Source of the DNA: Naegleria gruberi
Taxonomy: Eukaryota
Direction: 5' to 3' (one strand)
Assembly (NCBI GenBank): GCA_000004985.1
Contig: GG739300.1
Length of the DNA: 1,971 nt
The notes below the pieces were generated by a model that was not told the origin of the DNA, searched no databases, and was given only the letters and a program-made list of their open reading frames with translations. Shown piece after piece: positions 1 through 1,971 of this stretch. Position 1 is the stretch's first letter, and every line of letters begins with the position of its first letter. Both the position numbers and the translations under genes were made by a program.

Positions 1-943
1 CCTCCTGATCACAAACAACAACTTCATAAGTATCTCCAATGCATGCCATTAATTTACCATTCTTTGACTGAGTCACTGAATTATTGATACAATAATCAAA
101 AGATACTGCTGAAATCATGTCCATTGTAGGAAGATCAAACTTTCTAACAAACCCATCATTACTTGACACTAACAATGAATTTCCCTTCAAATCTAAATAA
201 TTTGTTATAGAGTTGGCAGAGTGTGATATTCGGTTATTGTAAATAACCTCTCCATCATTCTCTAAATTCATAATTACAATTTCTCCTTTAAATCCACCAG
301 CTACCAGATATGGGTAATTAGCATTAAGTGTTGATATTAAAATTCCTGAAGCTTCCGAATCCATATAAGTTAAATCCTTTACAATTCCCTTTCCCTTCCT
401 GAGATCCATTGATACTTTCGAATTTGATAATTTTCCATCAGCTTGTTGAGTTGTTCTTGTTATAGAATTCCAATGATGAATTGAATTATCATTCATATAA
501 TATACATCAGTAGGCGAAGTTGCTGCTATCATATGTCTCAATTGAAAGTGAGTAAACGAGCATGGTGTTTGTCTAGAATTTGATTTAAACGAATAAAAGC
601 AACATTTTTCATCTGTCGGAAAGTGTAATTTACTCTCCATATCACACAAATCACCAATTGGTTTACTCTCATCAGCATTCTTTTCCAGTGCTTTATCATA
701 CGTCTTCATTCTTTCAAGTCTATAATTTGATCGGGACTTCTTAATACTAACTTCCCATCCAATACGTTGAACATCTTGTCCATACACTTCAGATTGTAGG
801 CTTGTAGTATCCACGGCTAGTGATTGTTCCGTTAGAAATTTATTTCTCTTATCAAATAAATCTACAATACATGGATTTTCCGAGTATTCTTCCAAGTCAT
901 CACTCATCACTTGTCCATTTGTTGGTCTGTTATTACCATTCAT
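1..943 (-). CDS. WD40-repeat family protein, N-terminal 314 codons. The 5' end is complete (ATG at 943-941) and the 3' end continues past window position 1.
   Basis: I translated the minus strand by hand in the frame of the ATG at 943-941 and found no stop through position 2. Every plus-strand triplet starting at a position congruent to 2 mod 3 was checked for tta/cta/tca. The in-frame TAA (plus 950-952, tta) three codons upstream fixes this ATG as the first start. The start context is A8-ATG-A, which is typical of yeast. The protein begins MNGNNRPTNGQVMSDDLEEYSENP. It contains WD-repeat-like strand/turn signatures: YPYLVAGGFKGEIVIMNLEN (plus 263-316), LLVSSNDGFVRKFDL and KLMACIGDTYEVVVCD (near plus 2-50). 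Codon usage matches the neighbouring gene. The ORF track omits it because no stop codon falls inside the window. Confidence 0.8.
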   Translation of the reverse strand, partial: MNGNNRPTNGQVMSDDLEEYSENPCIVDLFDKRNKFLTEQSLAVDTTSLQSEVYGQDVQRIGWEVSIKKSRSNYRLERMKTYDKALEKNADESKPIGDLCDMESKLHFPTDEKCCFYSFKSNSRQTPCSFTHFQLRHMIAATSPTDVYYMNDNSIHHWNSITRTTQQADGKLSNSKVSMDLRKGKGIVKDLTYMDSEASGILISTLNANYPYLVAGGFKGEIVIMNLENDGEVIYNNRISHSANSITNYLDLKGNSLLVSSNDGFVRKFDLPTMDMISAVSFDYCINNSVTQSKNGKLMACIGDTYEVVVCDQE

Positions 944-975
944 TTTTTTTTAAAGTTTGTAAGCTTCGTCCCCAT
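940..975 (-). other. uORF of 11 codons (MGTKLTNFKKK*). Its TGA stop overlaps the main ATG as ATGA.
   Basis: The minus strand reads ATG(975-973) GGG ACG AAG CTT ACA AAC TTT AAA AAA AAA TGA(942-940). The main ATG is at 943-941, so the stop and start share 2 nt. The uATG has A at -3. Whether it lies inside the transcript depends on an unmapped TSS. Confidence 0.3.
942..958. repeat. Copy 1 of an exact 17-bp direct repeat, atttttttttaaagttt. It overlaps the start codon and A-rich leader of the WD gene.
   Basis: The 17 bases at 942-958 are identical to those at 1211-1227. Confidence 0.7.
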
Positions 976-1022
976 GATACCTTTTGGGATAGACACAATT
1001 CAATTCTCAATTTAAATCATAG

Positions 1023-1041
1023 AGGCTTTATTAAGGCTTTA
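1023..1041. repeat. Tandem 8-mer AGGCTTTA x2 (minus strand TAAAGCCT), with centres 11 bp apart.
   Basis: aggcttta at 1023-1030 and 1034-1041 are separated by tta. A third partial copy, taaagc, sits at 1371-1376 in the same orientation as the minus-strand motif. Confidence 0.5.
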
Positions 1042-1045
1042 AATA
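1038..1045 (-). promoter_or_regulatory. TATA-like element (minus strand TATTTAAA), about 95-100 bp upstream of the WD-gene ATG.
   Basis: The minus strand reads TAATATTTAAAG (plus 1037-1048, ctttaaatatta). This matches TATAWAWR with one mismatch. The distance to the ATG is compatible with yeast TATA-to-TSS spacing plus a short leader. Confidence 0.25.
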
Positions 1046-1210
1046 TTATTTTAGTTAAATCCTATAATCCTAAAATCATTGATAATTGGCATGAAATTCA
1101 AAGTCTATTATCACTACTTGTTGGTAAAGCACACAGAAAATATTACTCATGTTCTCTTAATTCAAGATAATACCTCATGATCCTATTGGGATCAGCTACA
1201 CTGAAATAAA

Positions 1211-1227
1211 ATTTTTTTTTAAAGTTT
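1211..1227. repeat. Copy 2 of the exact 17-bp direct repeat atttttttttaaagttt.
   Basis: Identical to 942-958. It lies 269 bp upstream, in minus-strand sense, of copy 1. Confidence 0.7.
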
Positions 1228-1267
1228 TTAAAAATAGAATTTTACTATTATTGTTTTTTCTTTTTGA

Positions 1268-1279
1268 AATAATAATAAT
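1268..1279. repeat. (AAT)4 microsatellite.
   Basis: aataataataat read directly from the sequence. Confidence 0.8.
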
Positions 1280-1315
1280 TTAAATCAAATTAAAATGGCA
1301 ACTATAAATCTATTT

Positions 1316-1327
1316 AATAATAATAAT
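1316..1327. repeat. (AAT)4 microsatellite.
   Basis: aataataataat read directly from the sequence. Confidence 0.8.
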
Positions 1328-1360
1328 TATGATGAATAATTAATTTTTAAATAGTATTTT

Positions 1361-1366
1361 TTTATT
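1361..1366 (-). terminator. Candidate poly(A) positioning element AATAAA for the mS41 gene, about 150 nt past the stop.
   Basis: Plus tttatt at 1361-1366 gives minus AATAAA. It is flanked by U-rich runs (plus 1357-1363 and 1377-1383 T tracts give minus A tracts, and minus T-rich sequence lies nearby). Yeast 3'-end signals are degenerate, so this is only suggestive. Confidence 0.2.
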
Positions 1367-1420
1367 GCCTTAAAGCTTTTTTTCAAAAAATCGAGATAAT
1401 GGTGTAGCAGTAGTATACCG

Positions 1421-1514: not shown

Positions 1515-1971
1515 TTAATGCAAGTAGGTTTGTGGATATCCTGGAACTTCGCCCTTTCTATATCTTTCCAACCATTTCAAAATCCAACGACGTTGGGCAA
1601 CTGGTATTTCCTTAACCTTCAATTTGAGAGACTTGGAGGTGAACAAATCTTCCCATGAAGTAAATTTATCTACATGTTCTTCGCATCCTTTACCGATATT
1701 CTTTAAAAATGATTCCACAGTTATTCCTCTTCTTCTTCTCGGAACGATAAGTGGGTCTAGGAGAGGTTTTGGAAGGTTAGCGAGTTGTCTTCTGAGTTTA
1801 GTTTCATCATCTTCCTCTTCTTCAGCGGCTTCGCTATATGAACGTTTAATTGTTGTATTATTGAAAGTTTGATTCATCAAGAATTTATATTGATTTTGCT
1901 TGCATTGCAAAACAACTCTAGATGTTGCTGATGAAAGTTGTTGTTGGGATGGTTTTCTGGCAACCAATGAA
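1515..1971 (-). CDS. FYV4: Mitochondrial small-subunit ribosomal protein mS41 (Fyv4 family, IGR-motif domain). The stop is TAA at 1517-1515. The 5' end is open to the window edge, and an internal Met at 1877-1875 is an alternative start.
   Basis: The minus-strand ORF is 150+ aa. Its C-terminal half, FLKNIGKGCEEHVDKFTSWEDLFTSKSLKLKVKEIPVAQRRWILKWLERYRKGEVP, matches the conserved pattern I recall for the fungal IGR/mS41 family (IGR.C.E.....W..LF......G.PV..RRYIL....RY..G), as in S. cerevisiae Fyv4. The N-terminal ~45 residues (LVARKPSQQQLSSATSRVVLQCKQNQYKF...) are rich in S/R/K/Q and lack acidic residues, which is consistent with a mitochondrial presequence. The first codon in the track is TTG, shown as M. 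The frame stays open to position 1971 (minus reads ..T TCA TTG), so the true ATG lies beyond the window or is the Met at 1877. Confidence 0.8.
   Translation of the reverse strand, partial: SLVARKPSQQQLSSATSRVVLQCKQNQYKFLMNQTFNNTTIKRSYSEAAEEEEDDETKLRRQLANLPKPLLDPLIVPRRRRGITVESFLKNIGKGCEEHVDKFTSWEDLFTSKSLKLKVKEIPVAQRRWILKWLERYRKGEVPGYPQTYLH
1803..1832 (-). other. Acidic low-complexity segment EAAEEEEDDE inside the mS41 CDS.
   Basis: A GAA/GAG/GAT-rich run on the minus strand. Its reverse complement produces the poly-Ser run of the spurious plus ORF 1624..1872. Confidence 0.7.

What the first reader, a model, noticed from the sequence alone, without database searches (positions are those of the whole stretch)
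1..943. A real 314-codon CDS (a WD40-like protein) is missing from the supplied ORF track because it runs off the window edge.
The minus strand from ATG 943-941 to position 1 is open in frame, which I checked triplet by triplet. An in-frame TAA immediately upstream and a strong A-rich yeast start context support the start. The product has WD-repeat-like motifs (YPYLVAGGFKGEIVIMNLEN, LLVSSNDGFVRKFDL, LMACIGDTYEVVVCD). In front of them is a roughly 150-aa Cys/His-containing N-terminal region (DLCDMESKLHFPTDEKCCFYSFKSNSRQTPCSFTHFQLRHM) that I cannot place in a named family. It may be a fungal-specific WD protein of unknown function. Relying on the track alone would annotate this region only with the spurious plus ORF 820..1170.
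Basis: seen in the sequence. Interest (0 to 1): 0.5.

Follow-up and report, generated by a model that had tools for sequence, protein, structure and literature searches.

The report
Truncated Naegleria WD40 propeller gene
The open frame is a real gene fragment, but it belongs to the amoeba Naegleria gruberi, not a yeast; it is already in GenBank and encodes the first 314 residues of a seven-bladed WD40 propeller protein from a family known in plants and fungi, so it is ordinary.

Summary
Observation confirmed. The minus strand from ATG 943-941 to base 2 is open for 314 codons. The other five frames carry 17-41 stops, chance is about 1e-12, and the ORF list omits it only because it runs off the edge.

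The window is a complete 1971-bp scaffold of Naegleria gruberi NEG-M. The gene is already deposited as EFC35378.1, "predicted protein, partial". An identical copy on an 850-kb scaffold (EFC48939.1) supplies 133 more C-terminal residues.

Intronless orthologues of 447-453 aa exist in N. fowleri, Willaertia and Acrasis. A profile built only from plant, algal and fungal members hits the window protein collinearly (178 bits, E 1e-50). The N-terminal 140 aa alone score 50 bits. This is the family named SPBC2A9.03-like in databases, most probably the FPWD/DRW family of the literature.

An AlphaFold model of the orthologue shows seven blades. The window holds the N-terminal extension, blades 1-3 and most of blade 4.

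The "Cys/His region" is not a metal site. Its cysteines are not conserved; HFQLR[NH] is the family signature.

"Yeast" and "fungal-specific" are wrong. A link to yeast Laf1/Dgr2 could not be tested. Low interest.

The parts
1..943 (-). CDS fragment: codons 1-314 of the WD40 propeller gene. Codon 1 is 943-941 and codon 314 is 4-2; base 1 is the first base of codon 315. The 3' end of the gene, about 145 codons, lies beyond the scaffold end.
   Evidence: Open frame and shuffle statistics. 100% identical to GenBank EFC35378.1. Residues 27-314 are identical to EFC48939.1 from the 850-kb scaffold. 69% identical to the N. fowleri orthologue and 54% to the Willaertia one.
941..943 (-). Start codon ATG (M1). 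The next in-frame ATG is M13, at 907-905.
   Evidence: First ATG after the in-frame stop. GenBank model EFC35378.1 uses the same start. Orthologue N-termini are of similar length. No transcript evidence was available.
950..952 (-). In-frame upstream stop TAA, two codons before the ATG.
794..943 (-). Residues 1-50: poorly conserved N-terminal tail, predicted with low confidence.
   Evidence: Conservation 0.13-0.31 and gaps 17-57% in alignment A2. pLDDT 31-49 in the model of the fragment.
710..775 (-). Residues 57-78, DVQRIGWEVSIKKSRSNYRLER: family motif D[IV]Q[GR]IxW...R..YR..R. The second half starts a predicted helix.
   Evidence: D57, Q59, W63, R71, R75 and R78 are at least 90% conserved in 23 family members. 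Helix 71-88 in the fragment model and 63-81 in the orthologue model, both at low or moderate confidence. Matched by the profile built without heteroloboseans.
575..598 (-). I infer that it completes the last blade and so closes the ring.
   Evidence: Strand 110-116 in the full-length orthologue model. It is disordered in the truncated fragment model, where blade 7 is absent. The ring-closing role is inferred from counting strands, not from inspecting coordinates.
533..550 (-). Residues 132-137, HFQLRH: the family signature HFQLR[NH], the most conserved block of the N-terminal half. It leads directly into blade 1.
   Evidence: H132, F133, Q134, L135 and R136 are at least 90% conserved in A2 and invariant in A4/A5. 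The block at residues 131-140 has mean conservation 0.79. HFQ[LIVM]R is present in 104 of the 151 best-scoring proteins listed.
404..529 (-). Residues 139-180: blade 1 of the propeller.
   Evidence: Strands 139-141, 146-150, 154-159 and 176-180, with pLDDT 70-88. Equivalent strands 132-173 in the orthologue model.
230..337 (-). Residues 203-238: blade 2. It contains YPYLVAGGFKGEIVIMNLEN (motif AGGFxGE).
   Evidence: Strands 203-209, 212-217, 221-226 and 232-238, with pLDDT above 90. G216 and G217 are invariant, and G220 and E221 nearly so.
101..205 (-). Residues 247-281: blade 3. It contains NSITN and LLVSSNDGFVRKFDL.
   Evidence: Strands 247-253, 256-261, 265-270 and 275-281. I246, N248, N262 and D263 are invariant, and R267 nearly so.
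8..88 (-). Residues 286-312: the first three strands of blade 4 (LMACIGDTYEVVVCD). The blade is cut by the scaffold end.
   Evidence: Strands 286-291, 298-303 and 308-312. The window ends at residue 308 of the orthologue, inside blade 4, which spans 280-318 there.
820..1170 (+). Plus-strand ORF of 116 aa with a GTG start. It is most probably not a gene: it lies antisense to the 5' end of the real CDS and runs into the AT-rich upstream region.
   Evidence: No Pfam hit. Its only similarity elsewhere is a 22-aa stretch over a conserved non-coding element in Willaertia, where no ORF of 30 aa or more exists on that strand.

Best explanation
Bases 943-2 on the minus strand are the 5' two thirds of an intronless nuclear gene of Naegleria gruberi. 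It encodes a cytosolic seven-bladed WD40 beta-propeller of about 460 aa.

The protein belongs to a eukaryotic family found in plants, algae, fungi and several protists, and reported absent from animals. Databases call its members 'WD repeat-containing protein C2A9.03' after S. pombe SPBC2A9.03. It is most probably the family described in the literature as FPWD (fungal-plant WD) and DRW1-5.

The window encodes four parts: a disordered tail (residues 1-50); a family-specific N-terminal module (D[IV]QGIxW...R..YR..R with a helix, one extra strand, then HFQLR[NH]); blades 1-3; and three strands of blade 4. The canonical WD repeats of blades 4-6 lie beyond the scaffold end. They are known from an identical second copy on an 850-kb scaffold.

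Mechanism (inferred, not shown): like other WD40 propellers it has no catalytic site and acts as a protein-protein docking platform. The conserved N-terminal module is either a clamp on the propeller or a second binding surface. By analogy with published family members the likeliest site of action is the cell cortex or plasma membrane.

The fragment exists as such only because a small, probably redundant, scaffold ends inside the gene.
For: Shown:
- The frame is open and far beyond chance.
- It is 100% identical to GenBank EFC35378.1 on a contig of exactly 1971 bp.
- Residues 27-314 are identical to EFC48939.1 on an 850,158-bp scaffold, which adds 133 C-terminal residues. The neighbouring mS41 gene is duplicated in the same way.
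- Orthologues of 453, 447 and 430 aa exist in N. fowleri, Willaertia and Acrasis. The N. fowleri gene is a single 1362-bp ORF.
- The profile search gave 484 proteins at E<=1e-30. Many align over nearly the whole profile, N-terminus included.
- Named members come from Citrus ('uncharacterized WD repeat-containing protein C2A9.03'), Stylosanthes, Brassica, Chara, Gonium, Caulerpa, Acetabularia, Hildenbrandia, Gloeochaete, Umbelopsis, Blastocladiella, Allomyces, a chytrid and CUG-clade yeasts.
- In the reciprocal test, an HMM of 12 plant, algal and fungal members hits the window protein as one collinear domain: 178.5 bits, E 1.3e-50, residues 36-313. The first 140 aa alone score 50.1 bits. Generic multi-WD40 proteins match only profile positions from about 240 onward.
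- BLASTP against the Citrus protein gives 30% identity over 276 aa, E 1e-31.
- The AlphaFold model of the N. fowleri orthologue has pTM 0.79 and a strand pattern that fits seven blades (my count). Its best solved-structure matches are seven-bladed WD40 propellers (G-beta, Cdc20, Tup1, RACK1) at E about 1e-17.
- The model of the fragment itself gives blades at pLDDT 85-95 from residue 140.
- PF00400 passes its cut-off in the full-length copies: 35.3 to 42.4 bits against 27.

From the literature:
- FPWD is found in fungi, land plants, green and red algae and 'diverse marine protists', not in metazoans, and is predicted seven-bladed. Deletion of the A. nidulans locus, which also removes a tightly linked neighbouring gene, gives a cell-wall phenotype (PMC4964407).
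Against: - On the 314-aa fragment alone no Pfam model passes its cut-off.
- There is no transcript or protein evidence for Naegleria. M13 cannot be excluded as the start.
- I could not obtain the Arabidopsis, A. nidulans, S. pombe or S. cerevisiae sequences. Equating this family with FPWD/DRW therefore rests on database names of plant homologues, matching lengths and taxonomic spread, and my memory of At1g55680. It does not rest on a direct alignment.
- The molecular function of the family is unsettled. The published roles differ (cell wall, immunity/G-protein), one is a preprint, and none concerns a protist.
- The ring-closing role of strand 116-123 is inferred.
Confidence: 0.93

Rival explanations
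1. The fragment is not an independent locus. It is an assembly by-product: a small unplaced scaffold, either an alternative haplotype or a collapsed duplicate, that repeats part of the 850-kb scaffold. There would then be one gene in the genome rather than two. This concerns the status of the window and is compatible with the best explanation.
For: The scaffold is only 1971 bp. Both of its genes are cut by its ends. Both products are 100% identical (288 and 151 aa) to the products of two genes with consecutive accession numbers (EFC48938.1 and EFC48939.1) on the large scaffold.
Against: The nucleotide sequence of the large scaffold could not be fetched: exact-protein look-ups found no record. 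Synonymous differences, which would distinguish an allele, a true paralogue and an exact duplicate, were therefore not examined.
Confidence: 0.7
2. The protein is the Naegleria counterpart of yeast Laf1 (Ymr102c)/Dgr2. These WD proteins are recruited by the sterol transporters Lam2/Lam4 to ER-plasma-membrane contact sites, and Laf1 is needed for retrograde sterol transport.
For: From memory only: I recall YMR102C and YKL121W carrying Pfam DUF2415 and being listed as orthologues of S. pombe SPBC2A9.03. Here, DUF2415 passes its cut-off in two family members (Citrus 21.6 bits, Umbelopsis 20.6 bits, against 20.5) and scores 18.0 in the N. fowleri orthologue. The hit is always on blade 6. A Candida maltosa member is named after SPBC2A9.03. 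Laf1/Dgr2 biology is described in PMC7760575 and PMC5584152.
Against: No S. cerevisiae protein was retrieved by name in any search, and none was recognisable in the metagenome scan. Laf1 and Dgr2 are about 830-850 aa and were predicted to have ten WD repeats (PMC7760575), unlike the 450-aa seven-bladed proteins here. The CUG-clade yeast members do not hit DUF2415 at E<=0.01. DUF2415 lies outside the window.
Confidence: 0.5
3. The protein is a non-canonical G-protein beta subunit, as proposed for Arabidopsis DRW1/2. In that case the N-terminal helix would bind a G-gamma subunit.
For: The top Foldseek hits are G-beta chains (E 8e-18, TM 0.75 on the target). The model has helices N-terminal to the propeller. 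The preprint 10.1101/786848 reports that DRW2 interacts with GPA1 and AGG1/2.
Against: G-beta chains are very numerous in the PDB, and Cdc20, Tup1, RACK1 and spliceosomal WD proteins score within a factor of about ten. Sequence identity is 13-16%. Pfam WD40_Gbeta scores 21-24 bits against a cut-off of 150. The N-terminal helices are predicted with low confidence (pLDDT 37-68). The preprint itself places DRW outside the G-beta clade.
Confidence: 0.1
4. The open frame is a chance ORF or a dead pseudogene fragment, and the plus-strand ORF 820-1170 is the real gene.
For: The fragment has no significant Pfam hit of its own. The plus-strand ORF is what the ORF list shows.
Against: Chance probability is about 1e-12, and no shuffle reaches half the observed length. 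The sequence is 69% and 54% identical to orthologues at the protein level and collinear with homologues across eukaryotes. Codon-position composition looks like coding sequence. The plus-strand ORF has no family hit.
Confidence: 0.01

Closest known systems
Heterolobosean orthologues: N. fowleri FDP41_013590 (453 aa), Willaertia magna ABK040_016686 (447 aa), Acrasis kona 'WD repeat-containing protein' (430 aa); and the second N. gruberi copy, EFC48939.1
   Same: Collinear over the whole fragment at 69%, 54% and 42% identity. EFC48939.1 is 100% identical over 288 aa. The N-terminal module and blade order are the same.
   Different: The window copy lacks the last third of the protein because the scaffold ends. 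The neighbouring genes differ: mS41 is not within 6 kb in N. fowleri or Willaertia.
Plant and fungal FPWD / DRW1-5 family (A. nidulans AN10216; Arabidopsis At1g36070, At1g78070, At1g55680, At3g13340, At5g56190); RefSeq name 'uncharacterized WD repeat-containing protein C2A9.03' after S. pombe SPBC2A9.03
   Same: About 450 aa with a seven-bladed propeller. Shared motifs are D[IV]QGIxW, R..YR..R, HFQLR[NH], AGGFxGE, N.ITN and SSND..VR. The Citrus member is 30% identical over 276 aa (E 1e-31). The taxonomic spread matches the description in PMC4964407.
   Different: This member is from a heterolobosean amoeba, a group not named in the papers I read. Plant members have an acidic N-terminal tail instead of the Naegleria tail, and fungal members often have long N-terminal extensions. 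Identity with the Arabidopsis and Aspergillus genes themselves was not tested directly.
S. cerevisiae Laf1 (Ymr102c) / Dgr2 (Ykl121w), partners of the Lam2/Lam4 sterol transporters
   Same: They are WD-repeat proteins. There is a possible shared DUF2415 segment on blade 6. My recollection is that they are listed as orthologues of SPBC2A9.03.
   Different: They are about twice as long and were predicted to be ten-bladed (PMC7760575). No sequence was available here, so homology beyond generic WD repeats is untested.
Generic seven-bladed WD40 propellers with solved structures (G-beta, Cdc20, Tup1, RACK1, WDR5)
   Same: The fold is the same: TM 0.69-0.78 normalised on the target, E about 1e-17. 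The sequence profile matches their repeats at profile positions 280-390.
   Different: Identity is only 13-19%. None matches the N-terminal 200 positions of the family profile. No member of this family has a solved structure.

Membership tests
WD40 repeat / beta-propeller (Pfam PF00400 and clan) | At least one repeat passing the PF00400 gathering score (27 bits) | tested here: not met
   On the 314-aa fragment PF00400 is not reported even at E<=1. The best propeller models score 16-18 bits against cut-offs of 110-305. The feature is met by the full-length copies: N. gruberi EFC48939.1 35.3 bits at its residues 294-330 (residues 320-356 of the reconstructed protein, just beyond the window), N. 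fowleri 38.7 bits and Willaertia 42.4 bits.
WD40 repeat / beta-propeller (Pfam PF00400 and clan) | Closed propeller of four-stranded antiparallel blades | tested here: met
   The AlphaFold model of the 69%-identical orthologue has pTM 0.79 and a strand pattern that fits seven blades. Foldseek finds 1962 PDB matches at E<=0.001, and the 50 best listed are WD40 propeller chains or complexes containing them. The fragment model shows blades 1-3 and three strands of blade 4 at pLDDT 85-95. These are predictions, not experiment.
SPBC2A9.03-like / FPWD / DRW family | Collinear, near full-length similarity to plant, algal and fungal members, not only over generic WD repeats | tested here: met
   An HMM of 12 members, none heterolobosean, gives one domain of 178.5 bits, E 1.3e-50, profile 39-297 against residues 36-313. 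Multi-WD40 decoys match only profile positions from about 240 onward. BLASTP against the Citrus member gives E 1e-31 over residues 45-314.
SPBC2A9.03-like / FPWD / DRW family | Family-specific N-terminal module: D[IV]QGIxW...R..YR..R followed by HFQLR[NH] | tested here: met
   DVQRIGWE...RSNYRLER lies at residues 57-78 and HFQLRH at 132-137. These columns are at least 90% conserved in 23 members. HFQ[LIVM]R occurs in 104 of the 151 best-scoring proteins listed. The N-terminal 140 aa alone score 50.1 bits, E 1e-11.
SPBC2A9.03-like / FPWD / DRW family | Direct homology to the named type genes (AN10216, At1g55680 and paralogues, SPBC2A9.03) | not testable with these tools
   Those sequences could not be retrieved. 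The link rests on source names of homologues: Citrus and Candida maltosa members are named after C2A9.03, and a legume member is called 'Transducin/WD40 repeat-like superfamily protein'. It also rests on the matching taxonomic distribution in PMC4964407.
Pfam DUF2415 (PF10313) | Score at or above the gathering score of 20.5 bits | tested here: inconclusive
   The segment (blade 6) lies outside the window. The N. fowleri orthologue scores 18.0 bits, below the cut-off, and N. gruberi EFC48939.1 is not listed at E<=0.001. Family members Citrus (21.6) and Umbelopsis (20.6) pass. Eight of 23 members hit at E<=0.01.
Laf1/Dgr2 (S. cerevisiae) | Sequence homology to Ymr102c/Ykl121w beyond generic WD repeats; binding to Lam2/Lam4 | not testable with these tools
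   No S. cerevisiae sequence could be obtained. None was returned by name, and none was recognisable. Binding is an experimental property (PMC7760575).
Heterotrimeric G-protein beta subunit | Match to the G-beta propeller model (PF25391, cut-off 150 bits) and an N-terminal coiled-coil helix that binds G-gamma | tested here: not met
   PF25391 scores 21.1-24.2 bits in the Naegleria proteins. Structural similarity to G-beta is no better than to Cdc20, Tup1 or RACK1. The N-terminal helices have low confidence.
   C100, C114, C115 and C128 are Cys in 2, 1, 4 and 10 of 23 family members respectively. Only H132 and H157 are conserved, and both sit in beta-strand context.

The most novel reading that the evidence does not exclude
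The so-called fungal-plant WD family (FPWD/DRW/SPBC2A9.03) is neither fungal-specific nor plant-specific. Clear orthologues occur in three heterolobosean genera (Discoba) as well as in Archaeplastida and early-branching fungi, so the family would be ancient in eukaryotes and lost in animals. Naegleria trophozoites have no cell wall, so the conserved core function would not be cell-wall synthesis. A general cortical or membrane-contact scaffolding role would fit better, possibly the Laf1-type partnership with LAM/GRAMD sterol transporters. The conserved D[IV]QGIxW / HFQLR N-terminal module would then be the partner-binding element that defines the family.
Probability: 0.3. Interest if true: 0.3.

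Novelty: already known. Interest (0 to 1): 0.1.

Why it matters
It matters mainly as a quality-control point. ORF tracks that drop frames running off a contig end hide real genes on short scaffolds, and then suggest spurious antisense ORFs in their place. Guessing the organism from AT-richness (here 'yeast') led the interpretation astray.

Biologically the gain is small. The gene and its family are already in public databases.

Two modest additions come out of this work:
- The two partial GenBank models of N. gruberi (EFC35378.1 for the N-terminus, EFC48939.1 for the C-terminus) can be merged into a nearly complete 447-aa protein.
- The family, still of unsettled function, clearly extends to Heterolobosea. 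That argues against a role restricted to plants or fungi.

Tried and rejected
- Pfam and NCBIfam on the fragment gave only sub-threshold propeller hits or nothing.
- PDB sequence searches, with the single sequence and with a profile, gave only generic WD40 matches. No family member has a solved structure.
- Exact-protein contig look-ups for EFC35378.1 and EFC48938.1 found no record, so the large N. gruberi scaffold could not be compared at the nucleotide level.
- Synteny: mS41 is not next to the WD gene in N. fowleri or Willaertia.
- Fold search against AFDB, which would have given UniProt names including yeast and Arabidopsis entries, failed because the library is not installed.
- I tried several routes to reach S. 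cerevisiae Laf1/Dgr2: two profile searches of the word-indexed protein database, a metagenome scan with a fungal profile, the supplement of PMC7760575, where the alignment is only an image, and literature searches for DUF2415, SPBC2A9.03 and C2A9.03. None gave a usable sequence or a statement of orthology.
- Zinc-finger reading of the Cys/His region: rejected, because the cysteines are not conserved.
- Specific kinship with G-beta: rejected as unsupported.
- Structured-RNA reading of the conserved upstream element: no Rfam hit, no tRNA, and fold z-scores near zero on both strands.
- Coding reading of plus-strand ORF 820-1170: rejected.
Full report
**1.

Translating the minus strand of bases 1-1000 gives an in-frame stop, two lysine codons, then MNGNNRPTNGQVMSDD..., with no further stop down to the window edge. 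A script counted 314 sense codons from ATG 943-941 to base 2. The other five frames of the same 943 bases carry 17-41 stops each.

The upstream stop is TAA at 952-950. With the window's composition (31.5% G+C) a stop is expected every 12 codons, so 314 open codons have a probability of about 1e-12. In 2000 shuffles the longest open stretch never exceeded 158 codons, against 316 observed. G+C falls from 0.40 to 0.24 between codon positions 1 and 3.

The ORF list omits the frame by design, because it runs off the source. In this region it shows only a 53-aa internal ORF and the plus-strand ORF 820-1170.

**2. Where the sequence comes from**

The first protein search returned a 100% identical protein, 'predicted protein, partial [Naegleria gruberi]', on a contig of exactly 1971 bp. 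The window is therefore a whole small scaffold of the N. gruberi NEG-M assembly, not a yeast sequence.

Cluster look-ups gave the accessions. The WD fragment is EFC35378.1/XP_002668122.1. Its neighbour is EFC35379.1/NAEGRDRAFT_76967.

The same two proteins occur again, with consecutive accessions EFC48939.1 and EFC48938.1, on an 850,158-bp scaffold. Residues 27-314 of the window protein are identical to residues 1-288 of EFC48939.1, which continues for 133 more residues. The window's second gene is identical to residues 8-158 of EFC48938.1.

The suggestion to 'extend the contig leftwards' cannot be followed, because the scaffold ends there. The missing C-terminus is nevertheless already public. 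The small scaffold is most likely a redundant haplotype or assembly duplicate. I could not check this at the nucleotide level, because the large scaffold could not be fetched.

**3. What the protein is**

On its own the 314-aa fragment reaches no Pfam cut-off. The best hits are propeller models at 16-18 bits.

Its relatives settle the matter:
- Orthologues exist in N. fowleri (453 aa, 69% identity), Willaertia magna (447 aa, 54%) and Acrasis kona (430 aa, 42%).
- The N. fowleri gene is a single uninterrupted 1362-bp ORF.
- The alignment with the window is gap-poor to the last residue, so no intron needs to be assumed.
- The full-length proteins pass PF00400 at a repeat just beyond the window's end: 35.3 bits in the N. 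gruberi copy, 38.7 and 42.4 in the others, against a cut-off of 27.

A profile of the four heterolobosean sequences, searched against 1.84 billion representative proteins, gave 484 hits at E<=1e-30. Many aligned over nearly the whole profile, N-terminus included.

Names recovered for these and for later hits cover a wide range:
- Citrus ('uncharacterized WD repeat-containing protein C2A9.03'), Stylosanthes ('Transducin/WD40 repeat-like superfamily protein') and Brassica;
- the green algae Chara, Gonium, Caulerpa and Acetabularia, the red alga Hildenbrandia and the glaucophyte Gloeochaete;
- the fungi Umbelopsis, Blastocladiella and Allomyces, a chytrid, and CUG-clade yeasts. One Candida maltosa member is named after S. 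pombe SPBC2A9.03.

To avoid circularity I built an HMM from 12 plant, algal and fungal members only:
- It hits the window protein as one collinear domain: 178.5 bits, E 1.3e-50 for a nominal database of one million, residues 36-313.
- It hits the first 200 aa at 89.8 bits.
- It hits the first 140 aa alone at 50.1 bits.
- Long generic multi-WD40 proteins match only profile positions from about 240 onward.

BLASTP against the Citrus protein gives 30% identity over 276 residues, E 1e-31.

**4.

This region is the family's own signature. The motif D[IV]Q[GR]IxW...R..YR..R lies at residues 57-78, and HFQLR[NH] at residues 132-137. Both are at least 90% conserved across 23 diverse members. HFQ[LIVM]R occurs in 104 of the 151 best-scoring proteins listed.

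C100, C114, C115 and C128 are Cys in 2, 1, 4 and 10 of 23 sequences. A metal-binding reading is therefore rejected.

The AlphaFold model of the N. fowleri orthologue has mean pLDDT 75.9 and pTM 0.79. It has a low-confidence, partly helical first 100 residues, a lone strand at 110-116, and then a strand pattern that I count as seven four-stranded blades.

By strand count the lone strand should complete the last blade. This is my inference. It fits the model of the truncated fragment, where that strand is disordered because blade 7 is absent.

In window terms, the fragment carries:
- the tail;
- the N-terminal module;
- blade 1 (residues 139-180);
- blade 2 (203-238, containing YPYLVAGGFKGEIVIMNLEN);
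- blade 3 (247-281, containing LLVSSNDGFVRKFDL);
- three strands of blade 4 (286-312, containing LMACIGDTYEVVVCD).

Foldseek against the PDB finds ordinary seven-bladed WD40 propellers: G-beta, Cdc20, Tup1 and RACK1, at E about 1e-17 and 13-16% identity. A profile search of PDB sequences finds only generic repeats at profile positions 280-390. Nothing matches the N-terminal half. No family member has a solved structure.

**5. Comparison with what is known**

The literature describes a 'Fungal-Plant WD' (FPWD) gene, AN10216 in Aspergillus nidulans. It has five Arabidopsis paralogues: At1g36070, At1g78070, At1g55680, At3g13340 and At5g56190. [quoted passage not shown] It is predicted to be seven-bladed. 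Deletion of the locus, which also removes a tightly linked neighbouring gene, gives a cell-wall phenotype (PMC4964407, PMC4686805).

A preprint names the same five Arabidopsis genes DRW1-5. It reports plasma-membrane localisation of DRW2, interaction with G-alpha and G-gamma, and a negative role in immunity (10.1101/786848).

The lengths, fold and taxonomic spread match the family found here, and I recall the At1g55680 sequence as carrying the same motifs. I could not retrieve the type sequences, however. The equation is very probable but not directly tested.

A further lead comes from memory only: S. cerevisiae Laf1 (Ymr102c) and Dgr2 would be the budding-yeast members. These are WD proteins recruited by the sterol transporters Lam2/Lam4 to ER-plasma-membrane contacts (PMC7760575, PMC5584152). 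The only support obtained here is Pfam DUF2415 on blade 6:
- It passes its cut-off in Citrus (21.6 bits) and Umbelopsis (20.6 bits), against 20.5.
- It scores 18.0 bits in N. fowleri.
- It is not detected in the CUG-clade yeasts.

No S. cerevisiae sequence could be obtained by any route. Laf1 and Dgr2 are also twice as long and were predicted to be ten-bladed. I leave this at about even odds.

**6. How it most likely works**

Shown: this is a coding gene fragment, it belongs to the family, and it has a propeller fold (the fold is predicted).

Inferred: the protein has no enzymatic motif and, like other WD40 propellers, serves as a docking platform. The conserved N-terminal module either clamps the ring or offers a second binding surface.

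The cortical or plasma-membrane site of action is an analogy with DRW2 and, if the link holds, with Laf1. Nothing here tests it.

Naegleria trophozoites lack a wall, so a purely cell-wall role for the family seems unlikely. That is a modest argument from distribution, not evidence of function.

**7. Verdict**

It is wrong about the organism, about fungal specificity and about the nature of the N-terminal region.

The gene and the family are already in public databases, so the finding is ordinary. The useful by-products are:
- a merged, nearly complete 447-aa N. gruberi protein;
- the correction of two truncated GenBank models;
- the note that this family extends to Heterolobosea.

**8. Seen in passing**

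- The second gene (1515-1971, minus strand) encodes mitochondrial ribosomal protein mS41: PF09597 at 92 bits. It is cut at its 5' end by the other scaffold edge.
- A stretch of about 150 nt, lying 105-250 nt upstream of the WD start codon, resembles a stretch upstream of an unrelated Willaertia gene: 74% column identity and an identical 16-mer. It shows no sign of being a structured RNA or a coding region. It remains unexplained.

Noticed in passing
window 1515-1971 (-): A second gene encodes mitochondrial small-subunit ribosomal protein mS41 (PF09597, 92.4 bits). It is cut by the right scaffold end. The window frame equals residues 8-158 of the 158-aa copy EFC48938.1, so 7 codons are missing. 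The GenBank model on this scaffold (EFC35379.1, 120 aa) therefore starts at an internal ATG (1877-1875).
   Followed up: yes
window 2-58 (-): GenBank model EFC35378.1 ends at residue 295 (base 59). The frame stays open for 19 more codons (GKLMACIGDTYEVVVCDQE), and these are conserved in the orthologues and identical in EFC48939.1. Merging the two partial models gives a 447-aa protein that lacks only about 12 C-terminal residues.
   Followed up: yes
whole window: The 1971-bp scaffold repeats a gene pair of an 850,158-bp N. gruberi scaffold with 100% protein identity (288 and 151 aa). It is probably a redundant haplotype or an assembly duplicate. The nucleotide-level comparison could not be done.
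   Followed up: partly
window 1048-1195 (read on the minus strand); L003 243-365 (+): A conserved non-coding stretch lies 105-250 nt upstream of the WD start codon. It aligns with a stretch 35-155 nt upstream of an unrelated 386-aa Willaertia gene: 74% column identity, 27 of 30 bases in the best block, and an identical 16-mer GTATTATCTTGAATTA. Both downstream genes share the start context TTTAAAAAAAAATGAA. There is no Rfam or tRNA hit, no stable fold (z about 0) and no ORF in Willaertia. It is absent from the N. fowleri loci and from a metagenome pattern scan. It may be a promoter or 5'UTR element, or the remnant of a mobile element.
   Followed up: partly
window 1201-1400: The intergenic DNA between the two genes drops to 13% G+C (24% over 944-1514), against 33-37% in the coding parts.
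   Followed up: no
P0172, P0173, P0179, P0180 and others (CUG-clade yeasts): Family members in Scheffersomyces, Spathaspora, Suhomyces and Metschnikowia are labelled 'mitotic spindle checkpoint protein BUB3, WD repeat superfamily'. They carry the HFQLRN signature of this family, so the label looks like an automatic mis-annotation.
   Followed up: partly
P0016 (Brassica rapa, 1210 aa); P0066 (851 aa): Two representatives fuse a complete family domain to unrelated N-terminal parts: a lysine/glutamate-rich chromatin-like region in one, and a chloride-channel-like membrane domain in the other. These may be merged gene models rather than real fusions.
   Followed up: no
L048, L051-L054, L057, L064 (metagenome contigs, about 52% G+C): Near-identical 837-aa ORFs of this family have a long N-terminal extension. 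Their length is like that of yeast Laf1/Dgr2, but they are clearly not from Saccharomyces. The organism is unknown.
   Followed up: no
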